DNA of 64,000 nucleotides from Reclinomonas americana ATCC 50394 (GCA_048213135.1 PS015093.1:1-64000), one strand, 5' to 3'; numbered from the stretch's first letter, positions 2,290 through 49,116 are shown. Notes: a model not told the origin generated them from the sequence alone. Numbers and translations: made by a program.

Positions 2290-5200
2290 ATGAAACGCGA
2301 CATGATGACAGGACATGAACGCTGCAAATCCGGCATTACGCACGCACAAGAAGCGGTCAGACAATGCCGTGGGTCGTTCACTTGGAAGATGGTGCTTTCT
2401 CTCACGCACACACGCGCACTCTCTCTGTGCTCCCTGCGCATTCTCACTCTCACTCCATGCACAGACGACAAGAAGTGGATCAACCTCGACGGTGGCCAGT
2501 TCGGTGAGTCTCCTCTTCCCCTTCACTCTCCCTCTCTTTCTTCTCCCTGCTCTGACCACACGCGCACACACACAGGCACCGTCTTCAAAGTCCCTGTGAT
2601 CGGCGAACCACGCTGGGTCGACCCTGCCTCTCTTTCCGGCGCCTCCTCCTCATCCTCCCCACCCGCATCCTCTTCCTCCTACGCGTGCGCACCACCTCCC
2701 GTGTTCCCTTCGGCCACGGACGCAGCTGCGCGGACCGCCGAATTCAAGTCTGCATCAGAGGGAGTGGCATGGGCGCCCTCGGCAGTGATAATTCCCGATC
2801 CATCACCTCTCTCTCCGTCCTCTATGAGCTCTTCTTCGTCGTCCGCGGCTGCTCCGTCGCCTTCTCGCATGGAGGCCGTTGCGTCGCCAATGCACCATCA
2901 CATGCCGCCGGGCGAGCCTCCGCGATGGGCAGTGGTCAAGCGTATTGTGGTGGACAACAGTTCGCAGGCACGAATCGGGGTGCGTTGACCAAGGTTTCTG
3001 CTGTGGACCTTCTTCTTTCCTTTTCGTGTAACGGTTCGTGTAGGTGCGGCCAGAGGATGTGGAGCGTGAGCGGGAGGCACTGCAGAAGCTGCAGGAGTGC
3101 CCGCAGGAGAACCTGTGCGACTCGTACATTCTGGAGCGGCCATTGCGAGCCAGATCCGGAGTCTCTTATCTCGGTGCGGTGATGTTGGGTAAGCACGCAC
3201 TGTTCAGTTGATCTGACGTGCGCCGTGTACAGTGACGGAGCTCTACGAGGGCGGCAGTCTCTTCTCCTTCATCCAGCGGTACGAAATGGACGAGGGACAG
3301 GCGGTGAGGACAGTGACGATTTTCTTCACCCTTCCTGTCTCGTACCTCATCTTGGGATCCCTGCTCCTGCTGCAGGCACACTTCACTTGGCAGCTTCTCA
3401 AAGCGCTGCAACACTTGCAGGAGCTGAAGATGGTGGTTCGTGTTGTTATCCCCACTCCCTTCTCCCTCTTGCGCAGTTCCTCATAATCTCTACCCTTTCG
3501 TTGACGACAGCATCGAGACTTGAAGGTGCAGTACTCCTGCGACGAATGTTTCCACCTGCAATGTCAACTGACCGCATGTCGCGTGCAGTCCGAGAATGTG
3601 GTAGTTGAGTACGTCAGGCGATCGGAGCGAGCGCGTAAGCAAGGCTCTAAGCTGAAGAGCGTCGTGCGGTTGCGGCTTGTTGACTTCGGTGTGTGCTCGT
3701 AGAGCTCTCCTTTGTCGCCTCGCTCTTTTGACTCATCGCAGTGGGCAGGCACAAGCAAGACCATTCCAACTGCTGCCTACAATGCCCGCCAAACGTACCG
3801 CGGATCCCAGTTTGCCATGGCGCCAGGTTTGTCTGCAAAACATACTTGCTTTCTGCTAGTGACTTGCTCACTCAAATCTCTTGTATTGGCAGAGGTGCAT
3901 CTACTGTTTGTCGACTCACAAGCACTTCCCCAGTGATGCCTTACCTGTGACTCTCTCCAGATTCGCAAGCAACACAGTGCGACGGTGCTCAGTGACATTT
4001 GGTCGCTCGGCTTCATTGTTGTCGAGGTACTGCAGTTTTCCCGCTCGTCTGAATGCTGCGCCGTCAATCATTCACTAACAATCACGTTTCTTTGTATGCA
4101 GATGCTCACCAACGGCAACCTGTACATTCCGGTTCAAGGTGGTCCGCCTGAGATCCCCGACGACATTAGCGATGAGGCCAAGAGCTTTTTGAAGCGGTGC
4201 TTCGTTGAAGACCCGTTGCGTCCATATTCCGCCTATCTCGCCCATGTCGTGCCTCATTCATTTTTCACGCGTGTGCCAGATCGGAGCGTGCCACGGTAGA
4301 CGAGCTCTTGAAGCATCCATTCATTTCGGTCGTGCGCGGCGAGAATGAGACTAGTTCCTACCGCGAATGGTGCGCTGCTTCGTGTTCCTCTCAACCGTAC
4401 TCGCATCACCACTCACATCATATTACATCCGCGTTAGCCCTCCGCTGCGCAGCGACAGGGTGTCGCAGAACATGGATGGTCACTCGCAGGCTGTGCTGTA
4501 CCAGAAGAATTTGCTGCGATGGCGAGGCAACGCATTTTTCGGTCGTCGATCCGTGTTTGCCGCCATCGAAGACTTCCGCACTGGCGACCAGTCGCCTCTC
4601 CCGTCGTCGTCTCACTCATCGGCATCAGCCCCGAGTGTGGGTGGACCCCGACCCATCTTGCTGTTGCGCGGTGGTGTTGGCGTCGGCAAGACGGCGTTGG
4701 TGTGCGAGATCGCCCACAAGTTCCTGATTCACAACAAGTATCCAGGCGTCGACACCGATGCTGTGGTGCGCGGTCGTCCTGTGCTCGGCAGAACACTCGC
4801 TGTGCATTGCTGATGTACGAATTCGCAGGGTGATTTCTTCTACGATAACATTGTCGTGCCAGTGGAGCGCATCGCGGGATTCTACATTGTGAACGCCAAC
4901 GAGACGCGCTCACTGACAACCGACATGTTCATTCGGAGCGTGACTTCCATGTTTCTTCGCACTGTTCCCAACTTCCGCGAATCTCTGGCCTTCAGTCTCC
5001 GCGACAGCGGTGACGTGTACGACAATGAGCGCTCCGCGGACTGGACACGACTCGTCAAGGACCCTCTCTCCAACAATTCGACGACGAATCCGCAGGTGCC
5101 TCGCTGCGTTCTTGTTTTGATCCATCACACAATAGGTGTGCTCACTTTGTGTTTTGTGCGCACACAGTCCATGATTCTTGTCATCGATGGACTCGTGGCC

Positions 5201-8200
5201 GAGGACAGAGTGCCCGAAGAAGCACGCGAATCGTACAAGCAGCTGTTGAGGCTCATGCGTCAAATGTTTGTTCGCACTTCGCTCATCCCTGTCTTTCTCT
5301 TGTGCGTATGCTCATTGTTGCTCTCTCACTCTAATGCACAGGGTTGCCGACTTCCCGCAGTGGATCCGATTGGTGTTCACTGTCGCCGATGACCATGTGG
5401 AATTCCTGCACAGCCTATTGCGATGTGACGCGGCTTCCTCATCGTCAGTCGCTGCGCATTCATATGTGCATGCAACTTCATCAGTAAGTCACCGTTGTAC
5501 AGACTACATGTTGCTCGACATGTCGATGGCTCTGTGACCGCCGTGCATTACAGGTGACAGTCACCGCGCAGGCACTGGGTGATCCGAAAGACAAGGAGAG
5601 TCGACTGGACGCAGAGGAATTCGTCCGCCACACCGTTGACGAACACCCGCGGCTGCGCCACGCCGTCAAAAAGTGGGCACCGAAAGCCAACAACTCGCGA
5701 GACTCGTCGGCAGCCAATCAGGAGTTGCGAGTGCGTCTTGGCCAGTGCGAATTGTGCCGCGTGGCGAACCACAACTTCCGTTACCTGAGCAAGATTCTGG
5801 AGATTGTGGCCAGTTCCACGTCCGATCTGAAGCACCTGCCAAAGGAGGTATGTGTGTGACACAGCCTGTCTGCTTCGGTCAGTGCTGATCCTCTGTGTGC
5901 AGCTCGATACCATCTACGAAGAAATGTTTGTGCAGTCGTTTTCCAACGTCAGCAGCTTTGAGGACGAGAGCGAGGTGCCAGGCATTTCATGGCTTGACGT
6001 CCTGGGTGGTCTCGGTCTTGAGCCAAGCCGCATGGACCAAATGGCGGAGAAACTCAACGAGATGGAGGAGCCACCGGCGCTGTTCGCTGTCAACCAAACT
6101 CCAATTGGCCAGAGCAGAAAGATTGCCAAAGTACTCGGCATTAGAGACCCTCGCACTCCGGAGGCACGTCTTGTTGAGGAGATTGTGCAGCGGCTTTCTC
6201 GATGCGTGCCGTCGACTCCGGCGCCGTCGCCTGTGCCTCTGGTAGATTCGTCGCCGTCACCAGCACTGGATGCCAGCAGAGTTTCGTTCGTGGAAGTGCA
6301 ACCCATGTTCGAAGTGCTGCTGAGTTGCGTGAGGCACCACAGCCGCAATTATCAGCGCCACGCGCGACAGTGCTGACCGTCATTTGTTTTTATGACAGCA
6401 TCGCCAACGCCGTTGTCGGAAAAGGAACTGCTCGACGCATTGTTCATGTTGGATCCAAGAGGGCGCTGGGACGCCAGGAGCCTGAAGCGTTGCCTCTCGT
6501 ACACTGAGCGGTTTTTGATTCGCCGATCCTCTGACGATCTCGGCGTTGTGTGCTCGGTGCGCCCGCGTCACAGCCGCGCGTGTTGTCAACGCTTTCCCGC
6601 TGACCTTTGGCTTTTGTGCAGGAGTCTGTGGAGACCCTGCAGATTGTGCCTCCTCTTGCTCGTTGGCTTTCCGACCTGGACCGCAGACACGAATACTACT
6701 GTTTCTTGCATCCTCCTGAGAAAGTGTGTCAAGCATTGGTCTCTGCTCTGTGGCATCAGTTCTGCGACCGTTGGTTCAACCACTGGGAGACGAAATCGGT
6801 TCGCAGCACGCTGCTGTCATATGTCTCACTCCCGTTGTTTCTGTCTCACCTGCGTTGTGTTGTTTAATTGCAGCGAAAGCTTGTGGATGCCGCCGCCGCG
6901 TACGTGGAGCGGCTCGGTCGCTCGTACTTGCCGCGCTTTCCATTTTTGCATGACGCGAGGGTGGACCTTTTCCGCATGGCCGCATTGGACCCCCGGCAGC
7001 CGCAGGGAGCATCGTTGCCGTCTGCCTCTTCTTCAAGAAATGCCGAAGAGCCTGCTGGATACTGGAGATCCATGGTACGTTTGATGGCTTGATGACTGGC
7101 GATCAACAGCCGCACAGTCATTGAAGGGCGCTTTACTCTCATGCACAGGCACAAGTTCTGGTCGATATCTGGAAGCTGAAGATGCGGTCGCCACAACTGA
7201 ACGCGAACAGCACTGATCTTCTCTGCAGCGAATTCGAAGCAATGCTCATTCCGTTTGGAGTCTATGCGTGGTGCTGTACTCCACGTGCGTTATCTGTCTG
7301 GTCCATTTCTGTGCCTCTTGTCGCTCTACTGATCTGAGTGAGACATTGCAGCACCGGAGGGCGATGACGATCTGTGGATTGATCAAGTGGACGAATTTCT
7401 GCTGCTCATGGAACCGTTTACGGCATCTGTCAGCAACAGCATCTGCAAAGTGCTCAGTTCGTTCCTGGAGGAGTTCCCGATGGCTGCACGCTCCTTTGCT
7501 CGTTGGCGTGATTTGCCAGTCGACAGTGCGGCATTTATCACCCTGCTGCAGTACGCCGGCCACCAATTCCGTATCTGTGAAGACTACAAGCTCGGCTACA
7601 CTCCGCTGCATTGGCTTGCCTTCGATGGCCATGTGCAGATGATCGACGCGCTGATCGCGACCATACCCTCTGCGTCATTGCACGCCGTTGTTGAGGGAAT
7701 GGAGGCGCCAGCGGATCCGCGTCTTTCTTTGCTGCATGCGAAACTCGGCAATAGTGGTGACACGCCGCTGCATGTGGCGGCCACCAAGTTACGCTTCCAA
7801 CCCGTGTCCATTTCCCTGAATAGACTGCAATTACTGACTGTTTTATTGGCAGTGGTCATGTGGAAGCCGTGCGAGCACTCATTAGACACGGCGCACGTGT
7901 CCGCGAACCAAACACATCCGGCAACTTGCCAAGTGCGTGCATCTATCATCTGCACCCTGTACCTGTTCTGGTACTCATCTTTTTGCATGCACCGCACACA
8001 CAGTTCACTTGGCCGCTCGACAAGGCCACGTCGATGTGGTGATGGAGCTGCTGCGGACGGATCTCCATTTGATGACCGTGTGCAACTTGCGCGGTCACAA
8101 TGTGATCTCGGTTGCCTCGATGTGGGGTGCGTTGCAGCGTCTGTTTCTTTGTGTGCGTGCGCAACCACTTACTCACCGTGGATTTTAGGTCGCGAGTGCA

Positions 8201-9650
8201 TTATCCGCTCAGTGGACGCCTTCCTTTCGAGTGAACAAGTCGACAGGCGCGACCTGCTGGTGACAGCATTGCATGAGCGGTACGTCAGCGCTGGAGAGAT
8301 CGCATTCGCAATGCTGATATCTTACAGTTTCGCGTGTATTTGTAGTGACATGCTGTCGCGTAATGCGGCACACTTGTGCGCTGGGTGGGACACCGATGGC
8401 AATCTGCAAACGATGAACCTGTTGCTGCGGATCGATCCGAATCTGCTGTATGCTCGACGACCGCCAAACACTCCGCCGCTGAAGGGGGCCCCAGTTGGTG
8501 TCTTGGCTTCACCGGGAGCAGCTTCTCGCTCGCAGAGCCTATTCGACGCTAGTCCGGAGCTCGAGTTGCCGATTGACTGGGCGGCTGGCAGTTGCGCACT
8601 GCTTGTATCACTTATCACCTCGTCCCCTCATCTTACCCGCTGCCTCGCAACTCACAGTGGGTCAGCCGCGCATGACATTCTCCCTGCTGGAGCACATGGA
8701 GCAGCGGCCGCACGAAGACTACCCCGACGCCACCGACATCAATCGTTTGCTTGTGCTGGCCAGCTATCGGTGCGGACCTCGGCTGCACAAGGCGGTGGCC
8801 GAGCATCCGCGCTTTGGACCCGAGGCCATCTACAATGCTCGACATAGTGCGGTTGACGAGCGAACACTGTTGCATTGCGCGGCTTCGAGGAAAGGCTCCC
8901 GTGATTTGGCGCAGTGGCTGCTTCACTTGCCGCCGCCGCCTGGATCACCACCACTTGTTTGCATCCCCGACAGCAAGAACTGTACTCCGTTGCGTGCGGA
9001 CGTGCCGTTGCTGGGTGTTCACTGCGCAGCATCTCACCATGCACACACACGCGCAGAGTGCACACTGCGGCTGCTTCTGGCAACTGTGAGGTGCTCAAGG
9101 TCTTCCTCGAATCGCCACCCGACGTTATTCCGCCCGAGATCTTTCAGCAGGTCACTGGGTGGGGTTTTACTCTGCTTCACTCGGCCGCCTACGTTCGCCC
9201 CCGCCAGGTGAGCGCACACGTCCTGTCGCACACGCACGCGCTCTGCCGCGCACTCACACCGATTCACTGGCGTAGACCATCATTCGCATGCTGGTGGAGC
9301 GTTTCCCGCACATGGTGACCATGAGCGACACGCACGAGAAGCAGACGCCGCTGGAGATGGCAGAGAAGCGCGCCAAAAAGTCGAAGCAGGTCCTTTCGCC
9401 CGCCATTAAGCGACTGCTACAAGGAGATCTTGCGCCCGACACGGTGGCGATCTCGGAGCCTGAAGACCCCGACTCGGTCGTTGTTCGCATCGACTCCATC
9501 GCCTCTGTGGTCTCGGGCGACGCCACGGCGGCTACAGACAGTGACATGCAGCGGTCGGTGTCGCTCTCGTCGTCGGCAATGTGGGACTCGAAGATTTTTG
9601 GCGAGCGTCAGTCACCTCGCGGGCCTCCCCCCGCAGCGGGTGATTGCTAG
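2290..9650 (+). CDS. Multi-exon Ser/Thr protein kinase + STAND/NACHT-like P-loop NTPase + ankyrin-repeat protein
   Basis: Kinase motifs: LDGGQFG|TVFKV, WAVVKRI, HRDLK|SENV, LVDFG, YRGSQFAMAPE, SDIWSLG. NTPase motifs: FFGRRSVF, LLLRGGVGVGKT (~4670), ILVIDGL, FPQWIRLVFT. Ankyrin motifs: GYTPLHWLAFDGHVQMI, GDTPLHVAATNGHVEAVRALI, GNLPIHLAARQGHVDVV, RTLLHCAA, GFTLLHSAA. Stop TAG at 9648-9650. Confidence 0.8.
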
Positions 9651-11646: not shown

Positions 11647-13538
<1,892 letters not shown>

Positions 13539-13633: not shown

Positions 13634-16600
13634 ATGTCAACGGTGCGGGTTCCCTCTGTGCTGTGTGTGCTTTCACTGTGTGCTGACCATCGCACACGCA
13701 GTTCTCTGTCCGTGTCGTGGCCTCACACGATTCAACGCTCGTCGTGTTCGTGGAGGGCATGTCGGCTGCGTCCACTCTCGCGGACTTGCTGCGTGAGGCC
13801 ACACACTTGCTGCGGGAGAAGAGTGGAGATGAGGGAGTGGAGATTGTGGGGGTGGAGAAGCCATCAGAGTTCAAGATCGCCAAGGTTGGCGGAATGGAGC
13901 TGGACGACCTGGGCATCAAGAGCGACACTCCGTTGGTTGTGCGAGTGGCCATGTCGCCTGCTTCTGCAGCTGGCACCGTAAACGGAGTTCCAAGGTGATT
14001 CTGCGTGCGAAGCTGCTGTCTCTTGTGTGTGAGAGAGGATGCGTTTTACTCATCCAAGTGCATTCTTCATTTCCAGTGCTTCGGCATTGTCTGAGCGGTT
14101 TGTTGTCTGCCGAGGCGCTCCAGTTGATGTTGCTCACGCAACGCCTTGCACAGAATGGTGCACTCGAATCGCGTTGATGTGGCGTGGGAGGCTGTGGTCG
14201 ATGCTTTGCGTTTGCGCTGTCAATGCGCTCTGGCGCAGTTCAGTCGCGATCATGCCGACTTTGATGTGCGGGCATGGACTCCCGATGTGTGGACGCCACC
14301 GTTGTGCTTGCTTCCACTGGCGATCAAAGCGTGGTACGATCGACATGCACCGCTGCATCCCGGACGAGTCAAGTTATTTGCACCGCAGCAGCAGCACCTG
14401 CGCGACTGGAAGTGTGCCTTTGATGCTGACTCCGCTTCTGACCCTCCGTGTGACGCATTCGATGTGACGGCGTTGGTGTCGATCCTGCTGTTTGGTGGCT
14501 TTGTTGAAGATGATGGTCGCAAGCTGCGGCTAATTGACGACGCTGAAGAGCGCAAGGCTGTGGAACTGGTGCGTGAGGTACGGAATGAGTTGGCTCATGG
14601 ATCGTTGGGATGGGACGAGTCCACTGTGTACGAATATCTCGGTGACACTGGTATCTTCCTCTCCCTGTTGGTGAAGCTGCGCATTCCTGTTGATGCAGTC
14701 GCCAGATTTGCGACGCGGATTCGTGAGGCTCGCCACCTCGACTTCAGCGTCAGCACCTTCGAGGAGCGACTTTATCGACTGGCTTTCCGTGAGCTCTCGT
14801 TTTACCAGCACGACGAGAGTGTGCGCAAGGACATGCAGATGTATGTACCGCTGCTGTGCTCACGTGAGCGCGATGTCTCCGCGAGAGACAAGATGACAGA
14901 CCTGTTAGCGGAAGTGGATGCTTTCCTCTCCGACAAGAACACCATGCAGCATGTGCTGGTTTTATTCGGCAACAGCGGAGCCGGCAAGACCACCACCATG
15001 TCGGTGCTGGCTGAGCGAGCATGGGGGCAGTGGCAGGCGAGAGAGAGCAGACGAGTGCCTGTGCGTGTGCCTCTTGGTTCATTGCGCAATGCCGATGAGC
15101 GACTGTTGGAGGAAGCATTGGAGCGACTGTCACCCGAGTTGGGATTCAGTGAGGCGGATGTGCGACGATTGAAGGAGGAGCCACTTCTGTTGTTGCTTGA
15201 CGGATACGATGAGTTGTACCGTGGGGTGAATCTGTTTGTCAAGAACCAGCTGGATGTTTGTCGCGATGTGAAGGTGATAATCACTTGTCGCGGTGATTAC
15301 GCCCTGACGGCACTGGGTGGTGTTGCGCAGTATCGACGGTACTTTGCACCGGTGGATGCACGTGGACAGTTGTGCATGCAGCAGCTGATGGAGCGACACA
15401 TTGCGCCGTTCAACAAGGAGCAGATCGAAAAGTACATTGAGCGACTGGTATCACGAGTGAGCGATGACGATGGTGAGGTGCGGTGGTCAACAGCCGAGGA
15501 GTACATGCGTGCGCTGATGGGTATTCGTGGGTTGGATGTGCTGGTGTCGAACCCGTTCCTGTTGGCTGTGGTGGCTCGTGTGTTGCCGGAGTTGGTGGCG
15601 AGTGGCGTGCAGCGACCAACTCGGTGTGATGTGTTTGACCGATTCATTCGACAGTGGATTGTGAGAGAGCAGGAGAGACAGACGCGTCTTGGTGCGAAGC
15701 GTGTACCGAGTGAGGACTTGTGTATCGCATTCTGTGAGGGACTGGCACGGTTGATGCATGAGAGGAATGTGGTGCGTGTGTCTGTGATAGAGAATCGAGC
15801 AGGTGATGACGGAGAGGAAGAGGAGGAGGACGACTTTGGTGGTGCGCCACTCTCCGTGCGACGAGTGGTCGAAGGACCGTTTGACAAGTTCCTCGGGCAC
15901 AAGAACCAACATGTGCGAGTTTGCTGTCCGATTGTGCGACGGTTTGGGACGACGCAGTGGGGATTCGTGCATCTGTCGTTGCTGGAGCACTGTGTGGCAC
16001 GGCATGTGTTTGCGTGGGAGACGTGGGATGAGGAGAGGAGATTGACGATGCAAGATGTGCAGCAGCATGTGTTGGCTGTGCGCCTGCTGAATGATCGACC
16101 ATCGTTGGTAGGGCAGATGGCTGAGGTGGTGCGACGATCGTCTCGATTGCAAGCGAGACTGTGGGAGGTGATTGAGTTGTCACGAGAGGTGGATAGTCAG
16201 CGAGTGGTGACTGCAGCCGCGAATGCAGCAACAGTGTTGTGTGTGGCACAAGTGTCGTTCAGTGGACGAGATCTGTCGGGTGTGCGAGTGAGAGGTGCGG
16301 ATCTGAGAGATGCGGTGATGCACAGGACGGTGTGGAGGGGAGCGGATTTGCGAGGAGTGAATGTGTGCATGGTGAATTCGATTGCGGCAGACTTCAGAGG
16401 AGCGGATGTGACGGAGGTTAAGTGGCCGAGGAAGCCGTTGATGGGTCATGGTCGCTTGGTGAATACTGTCCGCGTCACCCCCGATGGCCAGCATGTTGTG
16501 AGTGGCAGCGGCGACGGGACTGTACGAATGTGGTCGATGGCAAGTGGTTATGAGGTGCGCCGACTGCAAGGCCACACTGGTGAGGTGAATGCAGTGGCGG

Positions 16601-17460
16601 TTACACCCGATGGTCAGTACATTGTGAGTGGCAGTGTGGACAGCACTGTACGGGTGTGGTCGGTGGCGAGAGGTGAAGAGGCGCATCGATTACAAGGGCA
16701 CTGGGGTGCGGTGAATGCAGTGGCAGTGACACCCGATGGTCAGTACATTGTGAGTGGCAGTGTGGACAGCACTGTACGGGTGTGGTCGGTGGCAAGTGGT
16801 GAAGAGGTGCGCCGACTGAAAGGCCACACGCATGGGGTGTGGGCAGTGGCAGTGACACCCGATGGCCAGTACATTGTGAGTGGCAATGGTGACAGGACTG
16901 TACGGTTGTGGTCGGTGGCGAGTGGCGAGGAAGTGCGCGGACTGGAAGGCCACACATTGTGGGTGCGTGCTGTGGCAGTGACACCCGATGGCCAGCACAT
17001 TGTGAGTGGCAGTTATGACAGTACTGTGCGGATGTGGTCAGTGGCAAGTGGCGAGGAGGTGCACCGACTGGAAGGCCACACATTGTCGGTGACTGCAGTG
17101 GCAGTGACACCCGATAGCCTGCACATTGTGAGTGGCAGTGAAGACAAGACTGTGCGAGTGTGGTCGGTGGTAAGCGGAGAACATGTGCGCCTGCTTAGAG
17201 GGCACACTAGTGGTGTGCTTTCTGTCGCTGTCACTTTGGTGAATCAGCTTACTATGAGCGACAGCGATGTGGAGGCAAGCGGAGGTTCACGACGAGACTC
17301 TCGAGTACTCCTCGTTCTCGCATCTGGCGAGCTCGTCTTCACCGTCGAGCTCAACGTCCAGAATTCTGACACGGAGGATCGCGAACTCCGCAGACACCAA
17401 GGGGGCTTGCGCGAGCGGAATTCTGAGCTGATGCCCCATTTTTCTGGGGCCTTGTATTGA
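13634..17460 (+). CDS. NLR-like protein: ubiquitin-like + HEPN-like + NACHT + pentapeptide repeats + WD40 repeats (~1209 aa; exons 13634-13642, 13702-13994, 14077-14097, 14154-17460)
   Basis: All three introns are GT-AG and phase-consistent. UBL-like: TLADLL...LDDLGIKSDTPLVVRV. HEPN-like: FDVTALVSILL...VREVRNELAH. Walker A: GNSGAGKTT (14968). Walker B: LLLLLDGYDE. Also KVIITCR, NPFLL, FVHLSLLEH, AAANAATVL, then GADLRD/GADLRG/AADFRG, then 6-7 WD40 repeats. Confidence 0.9.
16441..17235 (+). repeat. 126-nt (42-aa) coding tandem repeat, WD40 units with high internal identity
   Basis: The TPD codons start at 16477, 16603, 16729, 16855, 16981 and 17107, exactly 126 nt apart; a partial seventh unit follows. 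Confidence 0.95.
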
Positions 17461-35656: not shown

Positions 35657-38036
35657 GAGGCAGAACAAGTGAGGCACGAGACTTACAAACAACACACTCC
35701 ATCGCTCACTCATTCACCTTCCTTTTTCTCCCTCCCACTTCCCCTTTTCTCCACCTTCCCCTTTCCTCCCCCTTCCCCTTTTCTCCTCCCCTTTCCCTCC
35801 CTCGCCAGGCTTCGTCGAGGCCTGCGCAACCGCCACGCGCATTGGCCAGTTCGTCACCAACATGCGGGCGCATCTCTTCAACACGGTGGATGCGATGCCG
35901 AGCAATGTCGCCGACTATCTCTGGAAGAACTATGTCTACGTGCTGCGCCAGTCCACGCTTTATGTTGCGCTCGTTGGTCGTCTCCTGGATTTGCTTGCAG
36001 TCAGTCGTGCTCATGGAGGGCGGTGTGAACAACAGGGGCCCTCAGATGCCTTCTGGTATCAAGCGGGACTGCTGTTGTCGCAGGTGCGCGGTCTGCAGCA
36101 GGGCTACGCGAGTGTGGCGGATCCGCAGAGTGTTGCGTGCCCCAGCTTCCTGATCTAGATTCGTCTTCGCTGCTCATTGTGAGTGCGTCACGTGGCAGCC
36201 GGTGCTGTCGCTCGTCGATTTCTTGTTTGTGCAAGCGGCCAGTGAGACGGAGGATATCATGTCGCACTTGAATCCGCAGCCGCTGGCGGAGCGGTTGAGC
36301 CGCATGAATGAGCACGAGCTGCGCGATTACACCGAGGTCAACGGGCATTGCACGTCGCTGATCAAGGTGCGGAGTTGGAAACAATTCTCACCTTCTCATC
36401 TCCCCTGCCCCCTCTTGCGTTGTGACTCCTTCTGCAGTGTAGTGCACTACTATTATTCATTTCTCTCTTTCTCTCTCCCTCTCTCCCTCCCCAACGCGTT
36501 GCTGTTGGCAAAGGAAGTGGCATTCATGTTCTCTGTCTTGCGCAGATCACTCCCGATGGGTCCGACCTGCTTGTGGCACACAACACATGGTATGCTCGCT
36601 CGGTTTCGCAGTCTGTGAGTTTTAACTCCTCACCAACCACTGGCAGGGTGTGGTTCACGCAAATGCTGCGTGTGTACAAAAAGTACACGCTGCAGTTCCA
36701 CTCGCTGGCCTCTGCCGGGCCCGGCTTCCGCATGTCCATGTCGTCGTATCCGGGCTCGTTGAGCTCGCTGGATGACTGGTGAGTATGGTGGAGATGCGGC
36801 TGTGGAATCACATTCTTCTCACCTTGATGCACAGGCTCATCTCCTCCAACAAGCTGGTGATTCTCGAGACCACCAACCTGGTGCGTGTGTGTGTGCATGA
36901 GAGGTTACCAACTCTATCTCTCATGCCCCTACCGCAGATCTTCAACACGTCGCTGTACACGGTGCTGCAACCGGCAGCCTCGTTCACCTGGGCGCGCTCG
37001 GTGATTGCCACTCGTCTCGCCAAGACCGGTGTCGAGTGGGCCACTCTGTTCCAGCGCGAGAACTCGGGCACGGTGTGTGTGGCGCACAGTTTTTTCTCTG
37101 GCTTGCGCGTGCGGCTGACATTTCCGTGCAGTACAACAACATGTGGCAGATTGTCGACATGAAGAAGTTCGTGCCGGGCAACACCAAGCCGGCGGCCAAC
37201 TCCGGTCTGTTGTATGTCCTCGAGCAGACACCGGTGTTTTTCCGCGGGTGCGTGTGCCTCTCGTCTGTGGCTGTGCTTGTTGTCATCAACGCACTGATGC
37301 GAGCTCGCGCTGCTGCAGTGGTGACCAGTCGGCGTTCCTGTCTTATGGTATGCGTGTGTCAGCCTGTTCTCATCTGCAATTCACATCTACCTCACTCCTC
37401 TCCATGTGCTGCAGATTCGCTGGGCTACTTCCCGAGTTACAATCGCCCGCTGAACAGGGACGTGTACCAAGTGATGGGCTACGCTTCGGAGGTGAAGATC
37501 TGGGGCGACTTTTGGACGTGGAGCGCCAATCCGCGAGCCAAGATCATTGCGCGCGATCAGGGCAAGGTGGTCGACGTGGAGAGCATGAAGCGATTGATCT
37601 GGGAGAACAACTGGCAGAATGATCCGCTCTCCGAAGGCAATGCCGTGGTGCGTGCCTCTCTTCAAGTCGCTTGTTCCGTGTCACTCAGCCATCTCACGGC
37701 TCACCTCGCTGCAGAATCAACTGTGCGCACGCAGCGACCTCGTCACCAACCCCAATGAGAAGAACTTTGATCTGGTGAAGCGGCCGCACGGTTGCATCGA
37801 CGGCAAGGTGACGTCGTTCCGAAGCGTCCACAATGGCGAGCAGGCGGAGGCTGTGTCCGGACCATCGCATCAGGTGCGCAGAGCTCTGTGGTGAACTCTG
37901 TTGCGTATCGCATCACATCTAACTCTCGACTGCCACACAGAGTCAGCAACCGTTCAGCTGGTCCGCCTCCGGGTTCGACAAGTACGTGCATGTGGGACAG
38001 CCTGATGTGTGGGCCTTTGACTGGATGATAATGTAA
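35011..38036 (+). CDS. Phospholipase B-like (PLBD, Ntn-hydrolase) precursor
   Basis: Signal peptide MHWRAVVVVVVLLLVCAVSG; GHCTSLIK, LVAHNTW, MSSYPG, LETTN, ENSGT|YNNMWQIVD, YFPSYNRP, NPRAKI, CARSDL, GCIDGK, HVGQPDVWAFDW. Confidence 0.92.
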
Positions 38037-38059: not shown

Positions 38060-39657
38060 TCACTCGTCCGCCTGTGTTCCCCGTGATGCCTCCAGCGCAT
38101 CTCGCACCGCTGCAATGCTGGAAGCCAGTGCCTGCTGCTGCAGCGGCAAGAACTCGAACTGGAAGAACCCGTGCACAGCGTCGTCGTGGTCGAAGTGCAG
38201 GTGTGACACCCACACACCGGCCTCCTTTAGCTTGCCGACATACGTGTGGCCGTCGTCACTCATCGGATCGGCCTTGCCACTGACCATCACTCTGCTCACC
38301 CAGACGTGTCAGACAAGGACGGGAACATTCTTCGCACCTGACAACGCAACGTTGGTGGCAACTCAGCCATGGAGGCCGCCTGCATCGGAGCCACTCGCCA
38401 GTCCTCTCGTGCCACACGCATGCGCTCCTCCAGATTGTCCCCGAGGTACGCAGCACTGAAAAAAGTGCACACAAACTGCGGTAGCACGTACGCATCGCCG
38501 CCTAATTTGTCGAACGACGGAGTGTCTGCGACCCACAGGCCGGGGTAGCTGGAGAGAGGGATTAGGGTTGAAGAAAACACGCCTTAGTGTACAGCACGAC
38601 GCAACATCAGCAGCTGTGCGTTGATGCGTGGTGGCGGCTGCACGCATGCCGGCTTCATGTTCACTTGCAACGCATCACGTGCCAACAATGACAGCACGGC
38701 AGTCAGGTTGCCGCCAGCACTGTCACCTCCCACGGCAATCTGACTTGCCGGACTGCACACTTGCGATGAACAAGGGAGGTGAAAGAGCGCAAAAAGGACG
38801 CAAGCGGACGCAACTCGACGAGCGACAAGACACCACGGCCACGATTCACTGACACCCACTCGAGAGCCGTGTAACAATCCTGCGCAATCGAGCGAGTGAG
38901 TGAGAAGGGCCACTTCAATGCAAGGGGAGATCGAGTAAAACGCACCTCGAGTCCACGCGGGAACTTGTGCTCCGGCGACAACCGATACTCCACCGAGACC
39001 ACCACCGCAGGCAGTCGCGTCGCCAAGTCGCGACACAATCGATCGTACGAGATATCCGAGGCGTGGTTGATCACATACCCTGCAGAACCACACAGCGACT
39101 GAGACAAGGCCAGAAGAAGAGGGTCCACTGCAGCTGTCATCTGCGTGCCACACCTCCTCCATGAATGTACACAAACACCGGCAGCCCGTCTCCCGTCCCT
39201 GGATTGAAGACTCGCACCGGAACTTCCACACCCTCCCTCTCTCCAGCCTCGCCTGCAGCACACGGACTACGCACAGTAACATCCCTTGATGCCACTCTCA
39301 TCACCTTTCCCTCTGCGCCTGCTGCATGTTCCACAAAGACCCAGTCACGATCAATGTCACGAGTGGTCGGAGGAACCGCGCGCTGCAGTCTCTCAAAGCA
39401 CTCGCGGCTGAACAGTGACGCATCGGCACCATACATGCCGCACTTCCAGAACATGAGACGCGCGACAACCTGCACAACAGCAATGCAGAGTGCGACAGTC
39501 AAGAGAAAGAAGAACATCGCGATCTTCTTCATGCACACATGTCAGCAACATCAACAAGTCGCAGTCTCCAGTGCGTGCTGTCTTTCCGCGTGCCCAGGTA
39601 CACGGCCACAAGAAGCACCAGTGCAGTGACGACCACCAGCGCGCGTCGGAGAAACAT
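38060..39657 (-). CDS. GDXG-family esterase/lipase (Abhydrolase_3, AADAC-like), tandem copy A
   Basis: N-terminal anchor MFLRRALVVVTALVLLVAVYLG; VYIHGGG, VSVEYRLSPEHKFP, GGDSAGGNL, DPMSDDG, VHGFF. Confidence 0.9.
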
Positions 39658-39799
39658 TTTTGTGAGAACTGCAGTAAGGACAGGACTTGTACGTCTTATT
39701 CTTCCTGGCGACTGCCATGTGCACGACAAGTACGTGCATGCGTGGCATTTGGATGTTGAGGAGACCATAGTGACGCTCGTGCAGCATTCTACGTTGTTT

Positions 39800-41386
39800 T
39801 CACTCCTCGACCACCTTCGAGCTTCGAGACACCTCCAGGGCTTCACGAATCGCTGCAATGCTGGAGGCCAGTGCCTGCTGCTGCAGCGGCAGGAACCACA
39901 ACTGGAAGAAGCCGTGCACAGCGTCGTCGTGGTCGTAGTGCAAGTGCGACACCCACACGCCGGCCTCCTTTAGCTTGCCCACATACATGTGGCCTTCGTC
40001 GTTCAGCGGGTCCGGCGTGCCGGTGATCATCACCCTGCTCACCCAGGCGTGTTAGCGATGACGCTACAGCACCTGCACCACACAGGCGACGCAACGTGGG
40101 TGGCAGCTCAGCCATGGAGGCCGCCTGCATCGGTGCCACTCGCCAGTCCTCTTGCATCATGCGCATGCGCTCGTCGAAATCGTCGCCGAGGTACGCCGCG
40201 TTGAAGAAACGGCATACGTACTGCGGCAGCACGTACGCATCGTCGCCCAGTCGGTGGAACGATGGGCTGTCCACCACACGCAGACCGGGGTAACTGGAGA
40301 GAGTCAGTGAGATAGCAATCGCGGAGAGGGTTAGCGCGCAGAACGCCACACGCAACATGAGCAGCTGCGCGTCGATGCGTGGTGGCGGCTGCACGCACGC
40401 TGGCTTCATGTTCACTTGCAGTGCATCGCGTGCGAGAAGCGACAGCACAGCACTCAAGTTGCCGCCAGCACTGTCGCCTCCCACTGCAATCTGACCCGCC
40501 GGACTGCACGCGCGGCGAATGAGAGAAAGACCGCGAGAGTGAAGGGCAGGAGAGCAGGCGCAACTCGGCAAGCGACAAGACACCGCGGCCACGATTCACC
40601 GACACCCACTCCAGTGCCGTGTAACAATCCTGCGTAAACGAGCGAGTGAGAAGGGCCTCGCCAGCGCACACTGCATGATGCCAACCAACCTCCAATCCAC
40701 GGGGGAACTTGTGCTCCGGAGACAGTCGGTACTCCACCGAGACCACCACTGCAGGCAGTCGCGTGGCCAAGTCGCGACACAATCGATCGTAGGAGATATC
40801 CGAGGCGTGGTTGATGACATGCCCTGCAGAGCGACTGAGACAAGGCCACGGGAGGGCCCACACTGCACTAGCAGCATACCTCCTCCGTGAATGTACACAA
40901 ACACCGGCAGCTTCTCGCCCTTCTCCGGCACATAGACGCGCACGGGAACTTGCACGCCCTCCCTCTCCCCAGCCTCGCCTGCAGCACACGGACTGTGCAC
41001 ATTGATATCCCGAGATGCCACTCGCATCACCTTCCCATCCGAGCCTGCAGAATGCTCCACAAACACCCAGTCTTTATCGCTGTCTCGCGAGGTGACAGCC
41101 GCTGTCGTGTACGAAGGCGCCAAATGCCGCAAATTCTCAAAGCATTCGCGGCTGAACAGTGACGTGTCGGCACCGTACATGCCGCACTTCCAAAACGCGA
41201 AACGCGCGGCCATCTGCACGCCATAAAACATGAGGAAACGAGGAAACGTCGCGACGTTTTTTTCTTCACGAATGCAACATCAACGAGTCGAAGTCGCCAG
41301 TGCGTGCTGTCTTTGCGCGTGCCCAAGTACACGGCCACGAGCAGTACCAGTGCAGTGATGACCACCAGCGCACGTCGGAGGAACAT
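39800..41386 (-). CDS. GDXG-family esterase/lipase, tandem copy B
   Basis: Same motifs and intron positions as copy A: VYIHGGG, GGDSAGGNL, DPLNDEG, VHGFF. Confidence 0.9.
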
Positions 41387-41482: not shown

Positions 41483-44400
41483 ATGACGCTGCTCCTGCAG
41501 AGGAGATGGTGGCGCGGAGGAGGAGGAGGAGGAGGAGTGACAGTGACAGTGAGAGCGAGTGTGATTGTGTTGATGATGATGACTGTGATGATGATGATGT
41601 GTGTCATGTGTGAGAGTGTGAGTGCGGTGCGAGTGGTGGCGACTGTGGACGAGGCGCAGCAGCAGAGTGGTGCCAGCTGGCAGGGAGACTGGTCACAGGC
41701 GCAGACAGTGTCAGGTGAGAGAGAGAGTCAAATCATGCTGCACGAGGACAGCTTGGTCAGTGAAGGAAAGAGAGAGAGAGACTGCAGAGAGCACACTCAC
41801 ACTCCCTCCCTCACACGCACACGCACTCTCCCTCTCTCCACTCTCCCTCGATTCCTACATGTGTAATCGGTCTTCTGTAGAGAGCTCTGATTGTGTTTTC
41901 GCGCGAAATTCGCAGGGACTGCGCTGTCGCGGCGTCAGTCGTTCCCGTGTCTGTTTGAGGGCTCTGCGCTGGTTGGAGGGAGCGATGTGGACGACGAATC
42001 GACGTTTGTGTGCACTGATCTGCCACCAATGTCGGTGGGGGCGCGAGGCGGCGGTCATCGCGTGCAAGTGCGTGTGACGACGGCGGAGGGGCAGCAGAGG
42101 GCGGCTGGTTTGGTGGGCTTTGATGTGGAGCTGTGTGCGGTGTCGGGCGTGGAGGGTCGTGTGCCGCAGTGTGTGCGCGAGGCGAATGTGCAGGAGGTGG
42201 ACTGGCCGCAGGCGGAGGCCGTGCATCGGCATCCGTCGGACGCGTTTGATGGGTTCTACGTGCTGCGCATTCGTCGGTCTGCGGCCACGACGTCACCGGC
42301 ACTGGTGGGCGTCTCGTTCCATGTGGACTCGGGCGCCAGTGAACGCATTCTGCCGCTCGGTGAGTGTGTGGAAGAAGAAGAAAAAAGGGTGATGGGGTGG
42401 CAAGTGATCTCAACCAACCCTGTTCATGCAGACAACATTCTGACGCTGGACGAGGAGGAGGTGGTCTCTGAGCCGGATAGCGTTGACGATCCAGTCACAA
42501 CCGACACCACCAAGTCGGGCCAACAGACGTCGACAACGACCACGGGATCGACGACGGCGACGACGGTGACAGGCCGTGCGCCGGGAGTTGTCCGCTACAT
42601 GGTTGTGGTGAACGTGACGCAGACGAGTGCCAAGTTGAAGATCGGCACGGCGATGACCAGCGGTGGATCACCAGTCAAGGGCTACCGTGTGGTGCTGTCG
42701 ACTGTGCAAGACAAGGTCGAGGTGACGTCGAAAGATCTGGCTGTGAATCAGCGCGAGATGGATGTTGTCGGTGAGCGAGTGAGACTGTCAACTACAGATG
42801 GTGTGATCTCAGGCTCGCGTGGTGCTCACCTGCCTTCTTTTGTGCAGACTTGTCCCCAGGCACGCGTTACGAAGCGACTGTGGCTGCCTTCAACGCCGTT
42901 GGTACGGGGCAGAAGCGCCGCGCGACGTTCTCGACCAAGGCAGATCCGAGCCAGGTGTGCTGCATGTCGTTGCTCTTTTTCTGGGACTGTGGTGATGGCG
43001 TGCTTAATGACTTGTGAAATACAACAGGCTCCCCCGCCGCCTCCACCACCACCGACATCTACGTCGACGACAGCGACAGCGACGGCAAACAATACCAACA
43101 AGGACAACGGCAGCAAGACCACCAACACGTCGACTACAAGTACATCGTCGAGCAACAACAACAACAACAACAACACCACCACCAACAACAGCAAGAACAC
43201 CAACAGCAGCAGCAGCAACAACAACAGCAACAACAAGACTGCCACCGCAACTGCATCGGCTAACAGCAGCAGCAAGTCGAATGACAACAAGTCAACCACT
43301 GACAGCAAGTCATCGAGCGACAACAAGGCGTCCTCCGACAAGAAGAGTGATGACAGTGCACCTCCGTCCCCACCTCCACCCCCACCGCCACCGCCACCGC
43401 CACCTCCACCGCCACCGCCACCCCCTTCCTCTCCATCGTCGAACTCATCCAGTGGGTCGTCTTCGTCGTCTTCAGGGACGAAGAAGGACAAGTCGAAGGA
43501 TGACGACCCAATGCCAGCCCCGCCTTCGGACAAGGACTCATCGGCAGGCGATGCGCCACCGCAGCAGCCGCCACCGTCCAATTCGGGAGCTGGATCAGGC
43601 AGCACAGGGCAGAATGGTTCAGCGNNNNNNNNNNNNNNNNNNNNNNNNNNNNNNNNNNNNNNNNNNNNNNNNNNNNNNNNNNNNNNNNNNNNNNNNNNNN
43701 NNNNNNNNNNNNNNNNNNNNNNNNNNNNNNNNNNNNNNNNNNNNNNNNNNNNNNCAGCAGCAGCAGCAGCAGCAGGGAGGATCGCAGAAGAATGGTAATT
43801 CAGGACAGCCACCGCAACAGCAACAGCAGCAACAGCAACAAGGGCCACCGGGGCAACAGCAACAGCAGCAGCAGCAGCAGCAGCAGCAAGGACCACCGTG
43901 GCAGCAACAGCAAGGCCCTCCATGGCAACAGCAGCAGCAACAGGGACCTCCGTGGCAACAGCAACAGGGCGGGCCACCATGGCAGCAAGACCAACAGCAA
44001 GGGCAAGATCAACAGCAAGGGCAAGATCAACAAGGTCCACCTTGGCAGCAACAACAAGGACAACAAGGCCCACCGATGCAGCAGGGGCAGCAGGGTCCTC
44101 CGATGCAGCAAGGGCAAGGGCAGCAGGGTCCGCCGATGCAGCAAGGGNNNNNNNNNNNNNNNNNNNNNNNNNNNNNNNNNNNNNNNNNNNNNNNNNNNNN
44201 NNNNNNNNNNNNNNNNNNNNNNNNNNNNNNNNNNNNNNNNNNNNNNNNNNNNNNNNNNNNNNNNNNNNNNNNNNNNNNNNNNNNNNNNNNNNNNNNNNNN
44301 NNNNNNNNNNNNNNNNNNNNNNNNNNNNNNNNNNNNNNNNNNNNNNNNNNNNNNNNNNNNNNNNNNNNNNNNNNNNNNNNNNNNNNNNNNNNNNNNNNNN

Positions 44401-45272: not shown

Positions 45273-47639
45273 ATGGAGCCCAGTGCGCGCCCGTTTGTGC
45301 TCCACCGCCAACGCTCCTCCTCCACATCCAGTGCATCAGCTGCTGCTCCGATGGCCGCTGCATCAGCTGCTGCAACAGCTGCGGCGGCAGGTGGTGCTCT
45401 CGGAGACTCTCCCGACTCGCCTCTCATCCGCATCGTGTCGGAGATGGTGGGCAGTGGCATAGGAGGCGAGCCAACAGCCTCCACACTGCACTTTAGTGAT
45501 GGTAAACACGCACACACAACGCACGCACACACACAAGAGAGAGTGGAAGGGGAGTTGCCAACTCTCTCTCTCTGTTACAGACACTGCTGGCAACCGCAGC
45601 AGTCGCTCATTCTCACTGGTGCGTCGTGGAGGAGTGCGTTCCATGGCACTCTCCAAAGACGATGCCATGCGCGTTCTGCTCAACTCCTCGTTCTCGGCGT
45701 CGGGTTCGGGGGATTTCACTGGGGATTTGAGCACGCCTTCTTCCGCAGCTGCTGCTGCTGCATCAGCTGCTGCTACTCCGTCGGCGCGACGACCGTGGCA
45801 TCGCCGAGCTGGGCTGCAGTCGTCAAGCAGGACCTTTCATAGCTCGTTGTGTGGCGATGTGGCAATGTCGCCAGCTGTAGTTGGCACGGATTGGTCCGGT
45901 TCGTGCAAGAGCAACAGAGACACAAGCCGTGCCCCATGAGGCCATGACTGACTATCCTTGTGTGTCATGAGGTAGCATTTGGCGAGGAGCATCATGGGCG
46001 GGCGCGGTTTGAGCTGACTCGCGGAACCAAGCTGATGGACGACTATGTGGTGCATGGGCGGTTCGAGACTTTCCGCTCGTCGGCGGTGACGCACAATCAG
46101 GTGGCTGTGGAGTGGATTGAGATGCCGCAGAGTGTGCTTGTGGTGTGCGAGAGCAACTCCGACGACTCCATCTTCAAGCACTTTAATGATGTTGTCAAGT
46201 GCGTGTCCGAGTGTTTTTCACTCTTTTTTTTTTGCTTGGGGAACTCACGTTGTCTCTTGCAGGTTCTTTATCAAGCGCAAGATTCGCGTGTATCGCCCAC
46301 AGGTGGTGGATCGCTCCGAGTTCGAGGTGCTGCCGCCACTGCGAGCAGGTGCGGAAGAAAAAAATGGAAACGTCTCATTTGGGCTCCAACTCACTGTGTT
46401 GGCCGGCAGATGTGCTCAACGACATTTCACTGGTGGTCAGTCTCGGCAACACACGGACCATTCTGCGTGTGGCTGAGGAGTTCCCCCAAGAGCATCCGCC
46501 AGTGGTGGCGTTCCACTTGGATTCTCTCGGGTTTCTGTCGGCATTCGGTGCGTATGTCAATCACACCCTCGCCCACTCCTTTTTCGTGAGAACTGATGTC
46601 CTTCTGGCCTCGCACAGACATTGCCGACTATGAGGAGATTTTGACGCGGTGCATCATGCCGCACTCCAAACTCGGTGTCAGCTGTCTGGCGCGCTTGTCG
46701 TGCCGTCTCATCTCTTACGATCGAGCAACGGGCGAGAAGACAGTCAGTGCGTACAAGCAGTCTATTCACTGGGTTAATGCACTCGCTGCTGACACTCGCG
46801 TGTTCTCTCACAGCTCAGTGCGTGGCACTCAATGACATGGTCGTGTCGCGTGCCGAGGGCTCGATGGTGGTGCGTGCCTTCCTGATTGTACTCCGTGGGT
46901 GCACTGGCTTGAAACTAACCATCTGCGATACAGGTGCTCAACTGCTTCTCGAACGGCACTCCGTTCACCACGGTGCAGGCCGATGGGTGAGTGTCGTCGC
47001 ACGTGAAGGGGAAAGAGTACCACACTCTGCTGACTTTTTGGTGTCGCAGTGTCATCATCGCCACGCCGACCGGCAGCACCGCGTACAGCATGTCGGCCGG
47101 TGGATCGATGGTGCATCCGATGGTGCCGGCCATCCTTTTGACGCCCATCTGTCCGCACACGCTGTCGTTCCGACCGATCATTTTCCCGGACTCCACGGCA
47201 CTCACGCTGCAGGTGCCAATGGATGCTCGGTTCGCATGCACCTCCTCGCCCTGTTCTTTGGCATCACCGCTCACCATGCCGTCTCCTTTACAGAGCTGGT
47301 GCACGAGTGGCTGTGGACGGACGCGACGTGGGTGCACTGAACCCGGGCGACAGTGTGCTGATCTACTTGCATGAGCACCCTGTGCCGAGTTTCGTTTCTC
47401 CAACCCATCGCCCGTCTACTTGCCGTCTCTCACGCTATGCTGCAGTGATCACGTTTGAGGGAGACGGTGGCGAGTCGCAGTGGTTCAACCAGCTGGCGAC
47501 ATGCTTGCTGTGGAACAAGAAAAAGGTGGTGCTCAAGGCCTCCAACAACAAGCCGGCCGACGAGGAGACGCACGCGTCGCCCGCACAAGCCGCGCAACCA
47601 ACACCAGCTGCTGAGGACCGCGAGGTCGTCGGAAAGTAG
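45273..47639 (+). CDS. NAD kinase-like protein with degenerate GGDG motif (probable pseudoenzyme)
   Basis: [22 protein letters not shown] and [30 protein letters not shown]...[13 protein letters not shown] match NADK; the GGDGT position reads GNTRT. Confidence 0.88.
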
Positions 47640-47703
47640 TAAAAAAACAACGCGCATTCTGTTATTGCTTCCCGCATCCCTTCCATCCTCCACACCATCC
47701 CTC

Positions 47704-49055: not shown

Positions 49056-49116
49056 TGTTGTGGGTGATAAGGCCCGGAAAATTGTCATTTTTTGCATTTT
49101 CACTTAGTTTTTTTGA

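What the first reader, a model, noticed from the sequence alone, without database searches (positions are those of the whole stretch)
16441..17235. Near-identical 126-nt WD40 repeats with hypervariable positions (het-e-like diversifying sensor)
Seen: six exact 126-nt units share AVTPDG...IVSGS.D.TVR.WSVASG.E but differ at a few fixed sites. After GH they read GRLVNT, TGEVNA, WGAVNA, THGVWA, TLWVRA, TLSVTA; in the GS.D.T loop they read GSGDGT, GSVDST, GSVDST, GNGDRT, GSYDST, GSEDKT. Known: Podospora HNWD genes (het-d/het-e) have highly conserved WD repeats with positively selected propeller-top residues that are shuffled by unequal crossing-over. Inference: a repeat-shuffling receptor repertoire.
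Basis: partly seen in the sequence, partly recalled or inferred. Interest (0 to 1): 0.7.

Follow-up and report, generated by a model that had tools for sequence, protein, structure and literature searches.

The report
Protist NLR with swapped WD40 sensor
This is one member of a large family of immune-receptor-like genes in a microbial eukaryote; its propeller-shaped sensor varies mainly at the binding face and appears to have been overwritten with repeats from other genes, a strategy already known from fungal self/non-self receptors.

Summary
The six 126-nt WD40 units are real (16444-17199), but only 67-88% identical, not near-identical. They end an intact 1209-aa gene: ubiquitin-like? / probable HEPN / NACHT / pentapeptide / WD40. 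It has no HET domain, and its closest database relatives are Mycoavidus and Mortierellaceae proteins. The assembly holds roughly 120 such loci (estimate). Across 711 repeats from 57 arrays, positions 4, 5, 7, 23 and 25 are hypervariable with dN above background dS. Four of them match the HNWD selected codons; three are known top-face hotspots. The probable second allele is 95% identical except a 642-nt in-register tract (68%). There the window copy uses the family's shared codon style, while the allele and the common flanks keep an older one. This indicates ectopic gene conversion, though no donor was found. The same repeat pool occurs in a divergent NACHT class and in stand-alone propellers. 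It works like HNWD but is not a member. Ligand, expression and RNase activity are untested. This scan noted the family and its variable sites before on other DNA of this genome; the allele-level tract replacement was not in the notes I saw.

The parts
13634..13642 (+). Inferred first exon (ATG + 2 codons)
   Evidence: GT-AG introns give one 1209-aa frame; splice sites and frame kept in the allele; no RNA support
13702..13994 (+). Exon 2, ubiquitin-like beta-grasp domain (weak lead)
   Evidence: Atlas ubiquitin/Rad60-SLD clusters at 0.87-0.88, below the tool's 0.9 lead threshold; no Pfam hit; 49-82% identical matches upstream of most paralogues
14077..14097 (+). Inferred 21-nt mini-exon
   Evidence: Needed to keep the frame; kept in the allele; a simple pattern found it in only 6 of 54 paralogues, so it is uncertain
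14154..14750 (+). Probable HEPN (Swt1/DZIP3-like) domain; R-N-x3-H motif at 14581-14598
   Evidence: H invariant and R in at least 90% of 41 family members; HEPN_Swt1 in 21 of 41 members, best E 0.0022, none for the window copy; Atlas HEPN_DZIP3 clusters 0.92-0.93; fold search inconclusive
14953..15444 (+). NACHT NTPase with intact Walker A and Walker B; helical STAND domains follow to about 16240
   Evidence: PF05729 E 1.2e-8, above cut-off; motifs conserved across the family
16258..16401 (+). Pentapeptide repeats
   Evidence: PF00805 E 5.2e-8
16444..17199 (+). Six 42-aa WD40 repeats; hypervariable positions 4, 5, 7, 23, 25
16506..17147 (+). Replaced tract: 206 of 642 bases differ from the allele; codon style of the family-wide repeat pool
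17200..17460 (+). Degenerate seventh repeat and locus-specific tail; may close a 7-bladed propeller
   Evidence: 97% identical in the allele, so not an assembly break; not resolved in the model (pLDDT <50 from residue 334)
11650..12780 (-). Head-to-head neighbour: divergent stand-alone WD40 gene with the helical tail typical of the WD-only class
   Evidence: Pfam WD40 E 4.9e-27; tail aligns with 23 other tails; open frame of 390 aa in the allele

Best explanation
The repeats are the ligand-sensing propeller of an intact NLR-like (STAND) protein from a large lineage-specific family in a heterozygous microbial eukaryote. Shown by sequence: the architecture; a shared pool of 126-nt repeats; five hypervariable codons per repeat; and a 642-nt in-register tract that differs between the two haplotypes. 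Inferred: ectopic gene conversion copies blocks of pool-type repeats between loci without changing array length, and diversifying selection keeps new residues at the propeller top. This turns over binding specificity much faster than the rest of the gene. Inferred from NLR and HEPN biology only: ligand binding releases the NACHT switch, oligomerisation dimerises the N-terminal HEPN domains, and RNA cleavage arrests or kills the cell. The ligands are most likely proteins of viruses or intracellular bacteria.
For: Architecture. Family: 57 pentapeptide-WD arrays among 78 fetched loci plus window and allele; 39 of 57 lie in one frame of 1000 aa or more with Walker A. Entropy is 2.8-3.7 bits at positions 4, 5, 7, 23, 25 and at most 1.64 at the other 37; 628 combinations at 5/7/23/25 among 711 repeats. 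Codon model on 220 of 711 repeats, shared synonymous rate: omega 2.2, 4.4, 3.1, 6.1, 1.6 (p <= 6e-7), with 0 of 37 other sites significant. Tree-free check, 166 repeats, 3000 pairs: dN/dS 2.5, 4.8, 5.4, 5.0, 1.6. In 16 recent within-array duplicates: 13.5 N / 1.5 S changes at these sites against 27.5 N / 28.5 S in the framework. Allele 93.5-100% identical in 13 of 14 segments and 67.9% in the tract; synonymous divergence 0.50-0.65 in repeats 1-5 against 0.08 in the tail and 0.24 upstream. Codons identical to the pool consensus where the residue matches: window tract 141 of 163, allele tract 64 of 144, shared flanking repeat parts 15 of 33 in both. In 15 of 29 fourteen-repeat arrays, same-position repeats of different loci are no more alike than other positions.
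Against: With a per-site synonymous rate only positions 5 (p 0.0012) and 7 (p 0.005) are significant; 23 gives p 0.07, and 4 and 25 are not significant. Only position 5 is near a 42-test Bonferroni limit. Synonymous differences are also raised at the variable codons (0.40-0.55 against 0.32), and recombination inflates tree-based tests. No donor: best match to the tract is 84% among 40 scored of 1475 candidates. Only 1 identical repeat pair between loci among 980 repeats. In 14 of 29 fourteen-repeat arrays, repeats 5-14 are position-specific and not homogenised. HEPN fold not established: Foldseek no hit; VIA best Z 7.3 to an unrelated protein; HEPN entries Z 5.5-6.2. The window copy has V where at least 90% of the family has E15. 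No expression, ligand or activity data.
Confidence: 0.72

Rival explanations
1. Neutral concerted evolution: any near-identical tandem repeats are homogenised by conversion, and the variable sites are just unconstrained surface positions.
For: Raised synonymous differences at the variable codons; positions 4 and 25 are not significant with site-specific rates. Recombination biases dN/dS.
Against: Relaxation gives omega near 1, as at positions 3, 32, 33 and 42; sites 5, 7 and 23 reach 3-6 in two methods. Other exposed loops stay fixed. The third base at codons 4, 5, 7 and 25 stays biased (59-73%) while bases 1-2 of codons 5 and 7 are near random.
Confidence: 0.1
2. The two arrays are ancient balanced alleles that diverged in place (MHC-like), with no transfer from other loci.
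For: Same repeat number and register; no donor found.
Against: Sharp tract edges inside repeats 1 and 6. The window tract is closer to unlinked loci (84%) than to its allele (68%), and the allele tract's best match elsewhere is 75%. The shared flanks have the allele's codon style. Balancing selection may still maintain both alleles.
Confidence: 0.06
3. The tract is an assembly chimera of repeats from other loci.
For: Fragmented assembly (16,441 contigs); no reads could be laid.
Against: No gaps, frame and register intact. The longest exact matches to 78 other loci across the edges are 29 and 31 nt. Each half-repeat has a different best match at 76-95%. A similar array-specific drop in identity is seen in 4 of 7 other close locus pairs.
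Confidence: 0.06
4. A programmed, targeted diversifier (DGR-like or somatic cassette switching) writes the variable codons.
For: Multi-base codon changes in recent duplicates; 628 of 711 combinations distinct.
Against: All four bases vary at codon positions 1-2 of codons 5, 7 and 23, with no adenine-only pattern. 7 of 16 recent duplicates have no change at the five sites. I did not search for a template or a reverse transcriptase.
Confidence: 0.04

Closest known systems
Podospora anserina HNWD/NWD family (het-d, het-e, het-r); Paoletti 2007 PMC1805685, Dyrka 2014 PMC4986451, PMC13449251
   Same: NACHT followed by 42-aa WD40 repeats under concerted evolution within and between loci. Selected codons 7, 9, 25, 27 flank the conserved codons 8 and 26, 18 apart; here the variable 5, 7, 23, 25 flank V6 and D24, 18 apart. 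Intergenic repeat exchange is reported there too.
   Different: No HET domain; probable HEPN plus ubiquitin-like head; pentapeptide linker; non-fungal host. About 120 loci against 10. Mean internal identity 54-82% aa (0 of 57 arrays reach 85%). A fifth variable site (4). Array length is mostly fixed (29 of 57 have 14). The pool also reaches stand-alone propellers.
NACHT-pentapeptide-WD40 proteins of Mycoavidus cysteinexigens and Mortierellaceae (called NACHT-PPR-WD40 in 10.1101/2021.12.02.471044; I read PPR as pentapeptide from the PF00805 labels)
   Same: Closest sequence relatives of the NACHT region (24-30% identity, best named hit E 4e-42), same domain order. In 6 of 10 relatives checked, repeats are 73-82% alike and vary at 4/5/7/23/25.
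   Different: Different N-terminal domains and a different repeat consensus, so homogenisation was independent (inference). Direction of any gene transfer was not tested.
HEPN-NACHT proteins (DZIP3/hRUL138-like, CXorf38-like, Swt1-like; PMC3710099)
   Same: N-terminal helical domain with R-N-x3-H before a NACHT.
   Different: No sequence relative outside this genome: 0 hits among 1.84 billion representatives. Fold and activity unproven.

Membership tests
HNWD (Podospora) | N-terminal HET domain | tested here: not met
   No Pfam family in 14128-14880 at E <= 1 or in exon 2; no HET hit in 41 family N-domains
HNWD (Podospora) | Central NACHT domain | tested here: met
   PF05729 above cut-off; but the 23 closest relatives are Mycoavidus, Mortierellaceae or unnamed proteins, none named as ascomycete
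HNWD (Podospora) | High internal conservation (80-100%; 85% threshold) | tested here: not met
   This array 71% mean aa identity; 4 of 57 arrays reach 80%, 0 of 57 reach 85%
HNWD (Podospora) | Four diversifying codons at the propeller top | tested here: met
   Positions 5, 7, 23, 25 (plus 4) have omega > 1 with a shared synonymous rate; only 5 and 7 with site rates; topology
HNWD (Podospora) | Concerted evolution within and between loci | tested here: met
   identical repeats between loci are nearly absent (1 pair among 980 repeats)
HNWD (Podospora) | Repeat-number polymorphism between alleles | tested here: inconclusive
   The two haplotypes have the same count; paralogues have 6-20, some cut by contig ends; one genome only
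HNWD (Podospora) | Allorecognition and regulated cell death | not testable with these tools
   No functional data
Mycoavidus/Mortierellaceae NACHT-pentapeptide-WD40 | Domain order and NACHT-region homology | tested here: met
Mycoavidus/Mortierellaceae NACHT-pentapeptide-WD40 | Phylogenetic nesting in that clade | not tested
   No tree was built
HEPN RNase superfamily | Rx4-6H motif, polar residue after R | tested here: met
   definition from PMC3710099 passages
HEPN RNase superfamily | HEPN helical fold | tested here: inconclusive
   Model pLDDT 81.8; AbiF Z 6.2 (rmsd 4.4, 149 aligned), Csm6 5.8, Swt1 5.5, tied with unrelated helical proteins; Foldseek none
HEPN RNase superfamily | RNase activity | not testable with these tools
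   Needs an assay

The most novel reading that the evidence does not exclude
One genome-wide pool of 126-nt WD40 blades overwrites, in register and without changing blade number, the sensor arrays of three distinct gene classes in a protist: HEPN-NACHT receptors, a divergent intron-rich NACHT class and stand-alone seven-bladed propellers. This would give it a shared, conversion-driven recognition repertoire coupled to different outputs, including an RNase. The window allele would be a caught example of an old receptor being recruited into the pool.
Probability: 0.35. Interest if true: 0.8.

Novelty: new variant of a known kind. Interest (0 to 1): 0.55.

Why it matters
The mechanism that maintains and exchanges conserved NLR repeats is described as unknown, with ectopic gene conversion only proposed (PMC13449251, passages). 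This locus offers a before-and-after pair: one allele with old repeats and one overwritten with pool-type repeats, with breakpoints mapped to a few codons. That makes the conversion model directly testable. It also extends HNWD-type diversifying recognition to a large family in a non-fungal microbial eukaryote, selected at the same propeller positions.

Tried and rejected
Truncated pseudogene (my first guess, because 29 of 57 relatives have 14 repeats): rejected. The allele has the same tail at 97% and both frames are intact.

Close-pair dN/dS with pairs chosen on framework identity: not used as evidence, because the choice lowers framework dS.

Regex repeat extraction missed divergent repeats; it was replaced by HMM extraction, which dropped 92 of 1072 hits (indels, N, stops, partial cover).

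Donor search found none. Sequencing runs: none was listed, so no evidence on expression or assembly.

Lineage: an HSP90 exon gave 78% to an unnamed protein and at most 75% to named plant and haptophyte proteins. The 18S search returned only a bacterial operon. The jakobid label of earlier notes is therefore unconfirmed.

WD-only tail: looks F-box/SOCS-like by eye (recalled), but no Pfam or PDB support. The single-sequence model did not resolve blade 7 and gave no coordinates for burial. Exon coordinates were off by 1-2 bases, so its spliced translations are void; corrected.

Literature: searches (listings only; 15 of 131 shown, 10 of 12) showed no paper on an HNWD-like WD40 repertoire in a jakobid or other protist. 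The library lacks most subscription papers.

Full report
Observation. Six ungapped 126-nt units run from 16444 to 17199, followed by 12 codons of a seventh. The quoted variable segments are correct. The units are 67-88% identical in DNA and 57-86% in protein, mean 71%, so 'near-identical' overstates it. Numbering from the G of GH, variation concentrates at positions 4, 5, 7, 23 and 25. The four positions equivalent to the HNWD sites hold 18 distinct residues, p = 7e-5 by permutation.

The gene. The repeats end a 1110-codon frame with a NACHT domain and pentapeptide repeats above Pfam cut-off. Three small upstream exons with GT-AG introns give 1209 aa. This 5' model is inferred; it is kept in the allele. 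Exon 2 resembles ubiquitin only weakly. The next domain is a probable HEPN. The R-x4-H motif is conserved in 41 family members, 21 of 41 give weak HEPN_Swt1 hits, and Atlas neighbours include HEPN_DZIP3 clusters. The fold search is inconclusive, and no outside relative was found. The closest relatives of the NACHT region are Mycoavidus and Mortierellaceae proteins at 24-30%; their architecture is mentioned in 10.1101/2021.12.02.471044 (passages).

The host. A 108-Mb, intron-bearing eukaryote assembly with two haplotypes about 5% apart. C704 is collinear with window 734-22430, window 45500-49500 has one 95% copy, and cytosolic-type HSP90 exons occur on two contigs. Lineage is unresolved; earlier notes say jakobid, which I could not confirm.

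The family. From the 150 listed of 232 matches I fetched 78 loci. With the window and its allele they gave 1072 repeat hits, 980 kept: 711 in 57 pentapeptide-WD arrays, 254 in WD-only arrays and 15 at locus edges. 29 of 57 arrays have 14 repeats; 32 of 49 WD-only arrays have 7. An 18-mer present in 33 of the 57 occurs 71 times in the assembly, which suggests about 120 loci over both haplotypes (inference). The sample is biased towards repeats like the window's.

Selection. Entropy peaks at the same five positions across the family. My own codon model on a random 220 of 711 repeats gives omega 1.6-6.1 at these five sites and at none of the other 37 when the synonymous rate is shared. With site-specific rates only 5 and 7 pass p < 0.01 (coarse grid, recombination not modelled). 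A tree-free comparison agrees, though synonymous differences are also raised at those codons and site 25 does not exceed its own synonymous level. In 16 recent within-array duplicates the five sites took 13.5 nonsynonymous and 1.5 synonymous changes, the framework 27.5 and 28.5.

Structure. The model places strands at positions 6-11, 17-22, 27-31 and 37-41 and matches 7-bladed propellers, e.g. 5yzv at rmsd 1.2. Positions 4-5 lie in the d-a loop, 7 at the start of strand a, and 23 and 25 in the b-c turn. By the rules in PMC3419727 (passages), 5, 7 and 23 are the top-face hotspots R1-2, R1 and D-1. The HNWD codons 7, 9, 25, 27 (PMC1805685, passages) map to 5, 7, 23, 25. Burial was not computed, and blade 7 was not resolved.

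The allele comparison. The C704 gene is intact, with the same repeat count and tail. It is 93.5-100% identical in 13 of 14 segments but 67.9% over 16506-17147: 206 of 642 bases differ, against 134 of 2662 in the rest of the exon. Synonymous divergence is 0.50-0.65 in repeats 1-5, so point mutation under selection cannot explain it. Polarity comes from codon style. The window tract matches the pool consensus at 141 of 163 same-residue codons, the allele tract at 64 of 144, and the repeat parts shared outside the tract at 15 of 33. The allele is thus continuous with the flanks and the window tract is the import (inference). It is 84% identical to many unlinked loci, with no single donor; the allele tract reaches 75% at best. 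In 4 of 7 other close locus pairs the arrays are 74-85% alike while the 3' flanks are 90-98%. One pair shares array and 3' flank only, and two are mixed. Near-identical repeats at non-adjacent positions within arrays show local copying too.

Reach of the pool. Four loci inspected (L035, L077, L092, L099) carry pool-type arrays (85-89% to consensus) behind a different, apparently intron-rich NACHT. 12 of 39 WD-only arrays of six or more repeats are pool-type (85-88%), one or two possibly NLR fragments; the other 27 are 54-74%. This two-state pattern mirrors the two alleles here. Against full homogenisation: 14 of 29 fourteen-repeat arrays keep position-specific repeats 5-14, and only one identical repeat pair occurs between loci.

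Mechanism. Shown: architecture, family, variable sites, allelic tract. Inferred: conversion as the cause, selection as the filter, top-face binding. Assumed from NLR and HEPN biology (PMC3710099, passages; my own knowledge for the activation cycle): ligand-triggered oligomerisation and RNA cleavage in defence.

Comparison. It works like HNWD but fails the HET-domain and 85% conservation tests (threshold from PMC4986451, passages). PMC13449251 (passages and section 12) reports such conserved-repeat NLRs in animals, plants and prokaryotes, and intergenic exchange in Podospora; the word 'protist' does not occur in it. Mycoavidus relatives vary at the same positions. Supplements of these papers were not read and may list protist cases. 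Earlier notes of this scan already describe this family, its probable HEPN head and the variable stand-alone propellers on other pieces of this genome.

Verdict. A real feature and a new variant of a known kind. Interest 0.55, carried by the mapped before-and-after allele pair and the shared pool.

Noticed in passing
window 11650-12780 (-): Stand-alone WD40 gene head-to-head with the NLR, about 0.8 kb apart, with old-type blades and the conserved tail of the WD-only class; possible partner, not tested.
   Followed up: partly
L042, L052, L094, L100, L103 (contigs C381, C257, C358, C604, C605): Tandem clusters of seven-bladed WD-only genes with a conserved two-helix tail that has no Pfam or PDB match.
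   Followed up: partly
L084 / L093 about 3258-4725: In L084 a NACHT segment (residues 169-317) lies on the opposite strand between its neighbours; L093 lacks a match over the same part. Both have over 1000 N: inversion or scaffolding error.
   Followed up: no
L060 versus L077: Two loci with unrelated NACHT classes share a related array and a 93-96% identical 3' flank, suggesting a 5'/3' gene chimera.
   Followed up: partly
alignment A1, columns 40-170: The HEPN-like domain is a mosaic of a few alternative blocks across paralogues (54-76% identity to the window copy, against about 85% for NACHT); some variants read R-K-x3-H.
   Followed up: no
L116 (G000:C1:277609-282129): Complete bacterial 16S rRNA, two tRNAs and the start of 23S on contig C1; a bacterial-type HSP90 on C2. 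The assembly contains bacterial DNA, symbiont or contaminant.
   Followed up: partly
C7522, C2509, C280, C6654, C143, C219 and others: A second, more divergent set of multi-array WD40 loci, 66-75% alike to the allele's old repeats.
   Followed up: no
window 7342-8844, 36901-37755, 38587-41073, 49120-51690: Ordinary genes: ankyrin protein, phospholipase B, alpha/beta hydrolase, a divergent eIF3e.
   Followed up: no
window 43150-44150: Low-complexity Gln/Pro-rich tandem repeats, broken by a gap.
   Followed up: no
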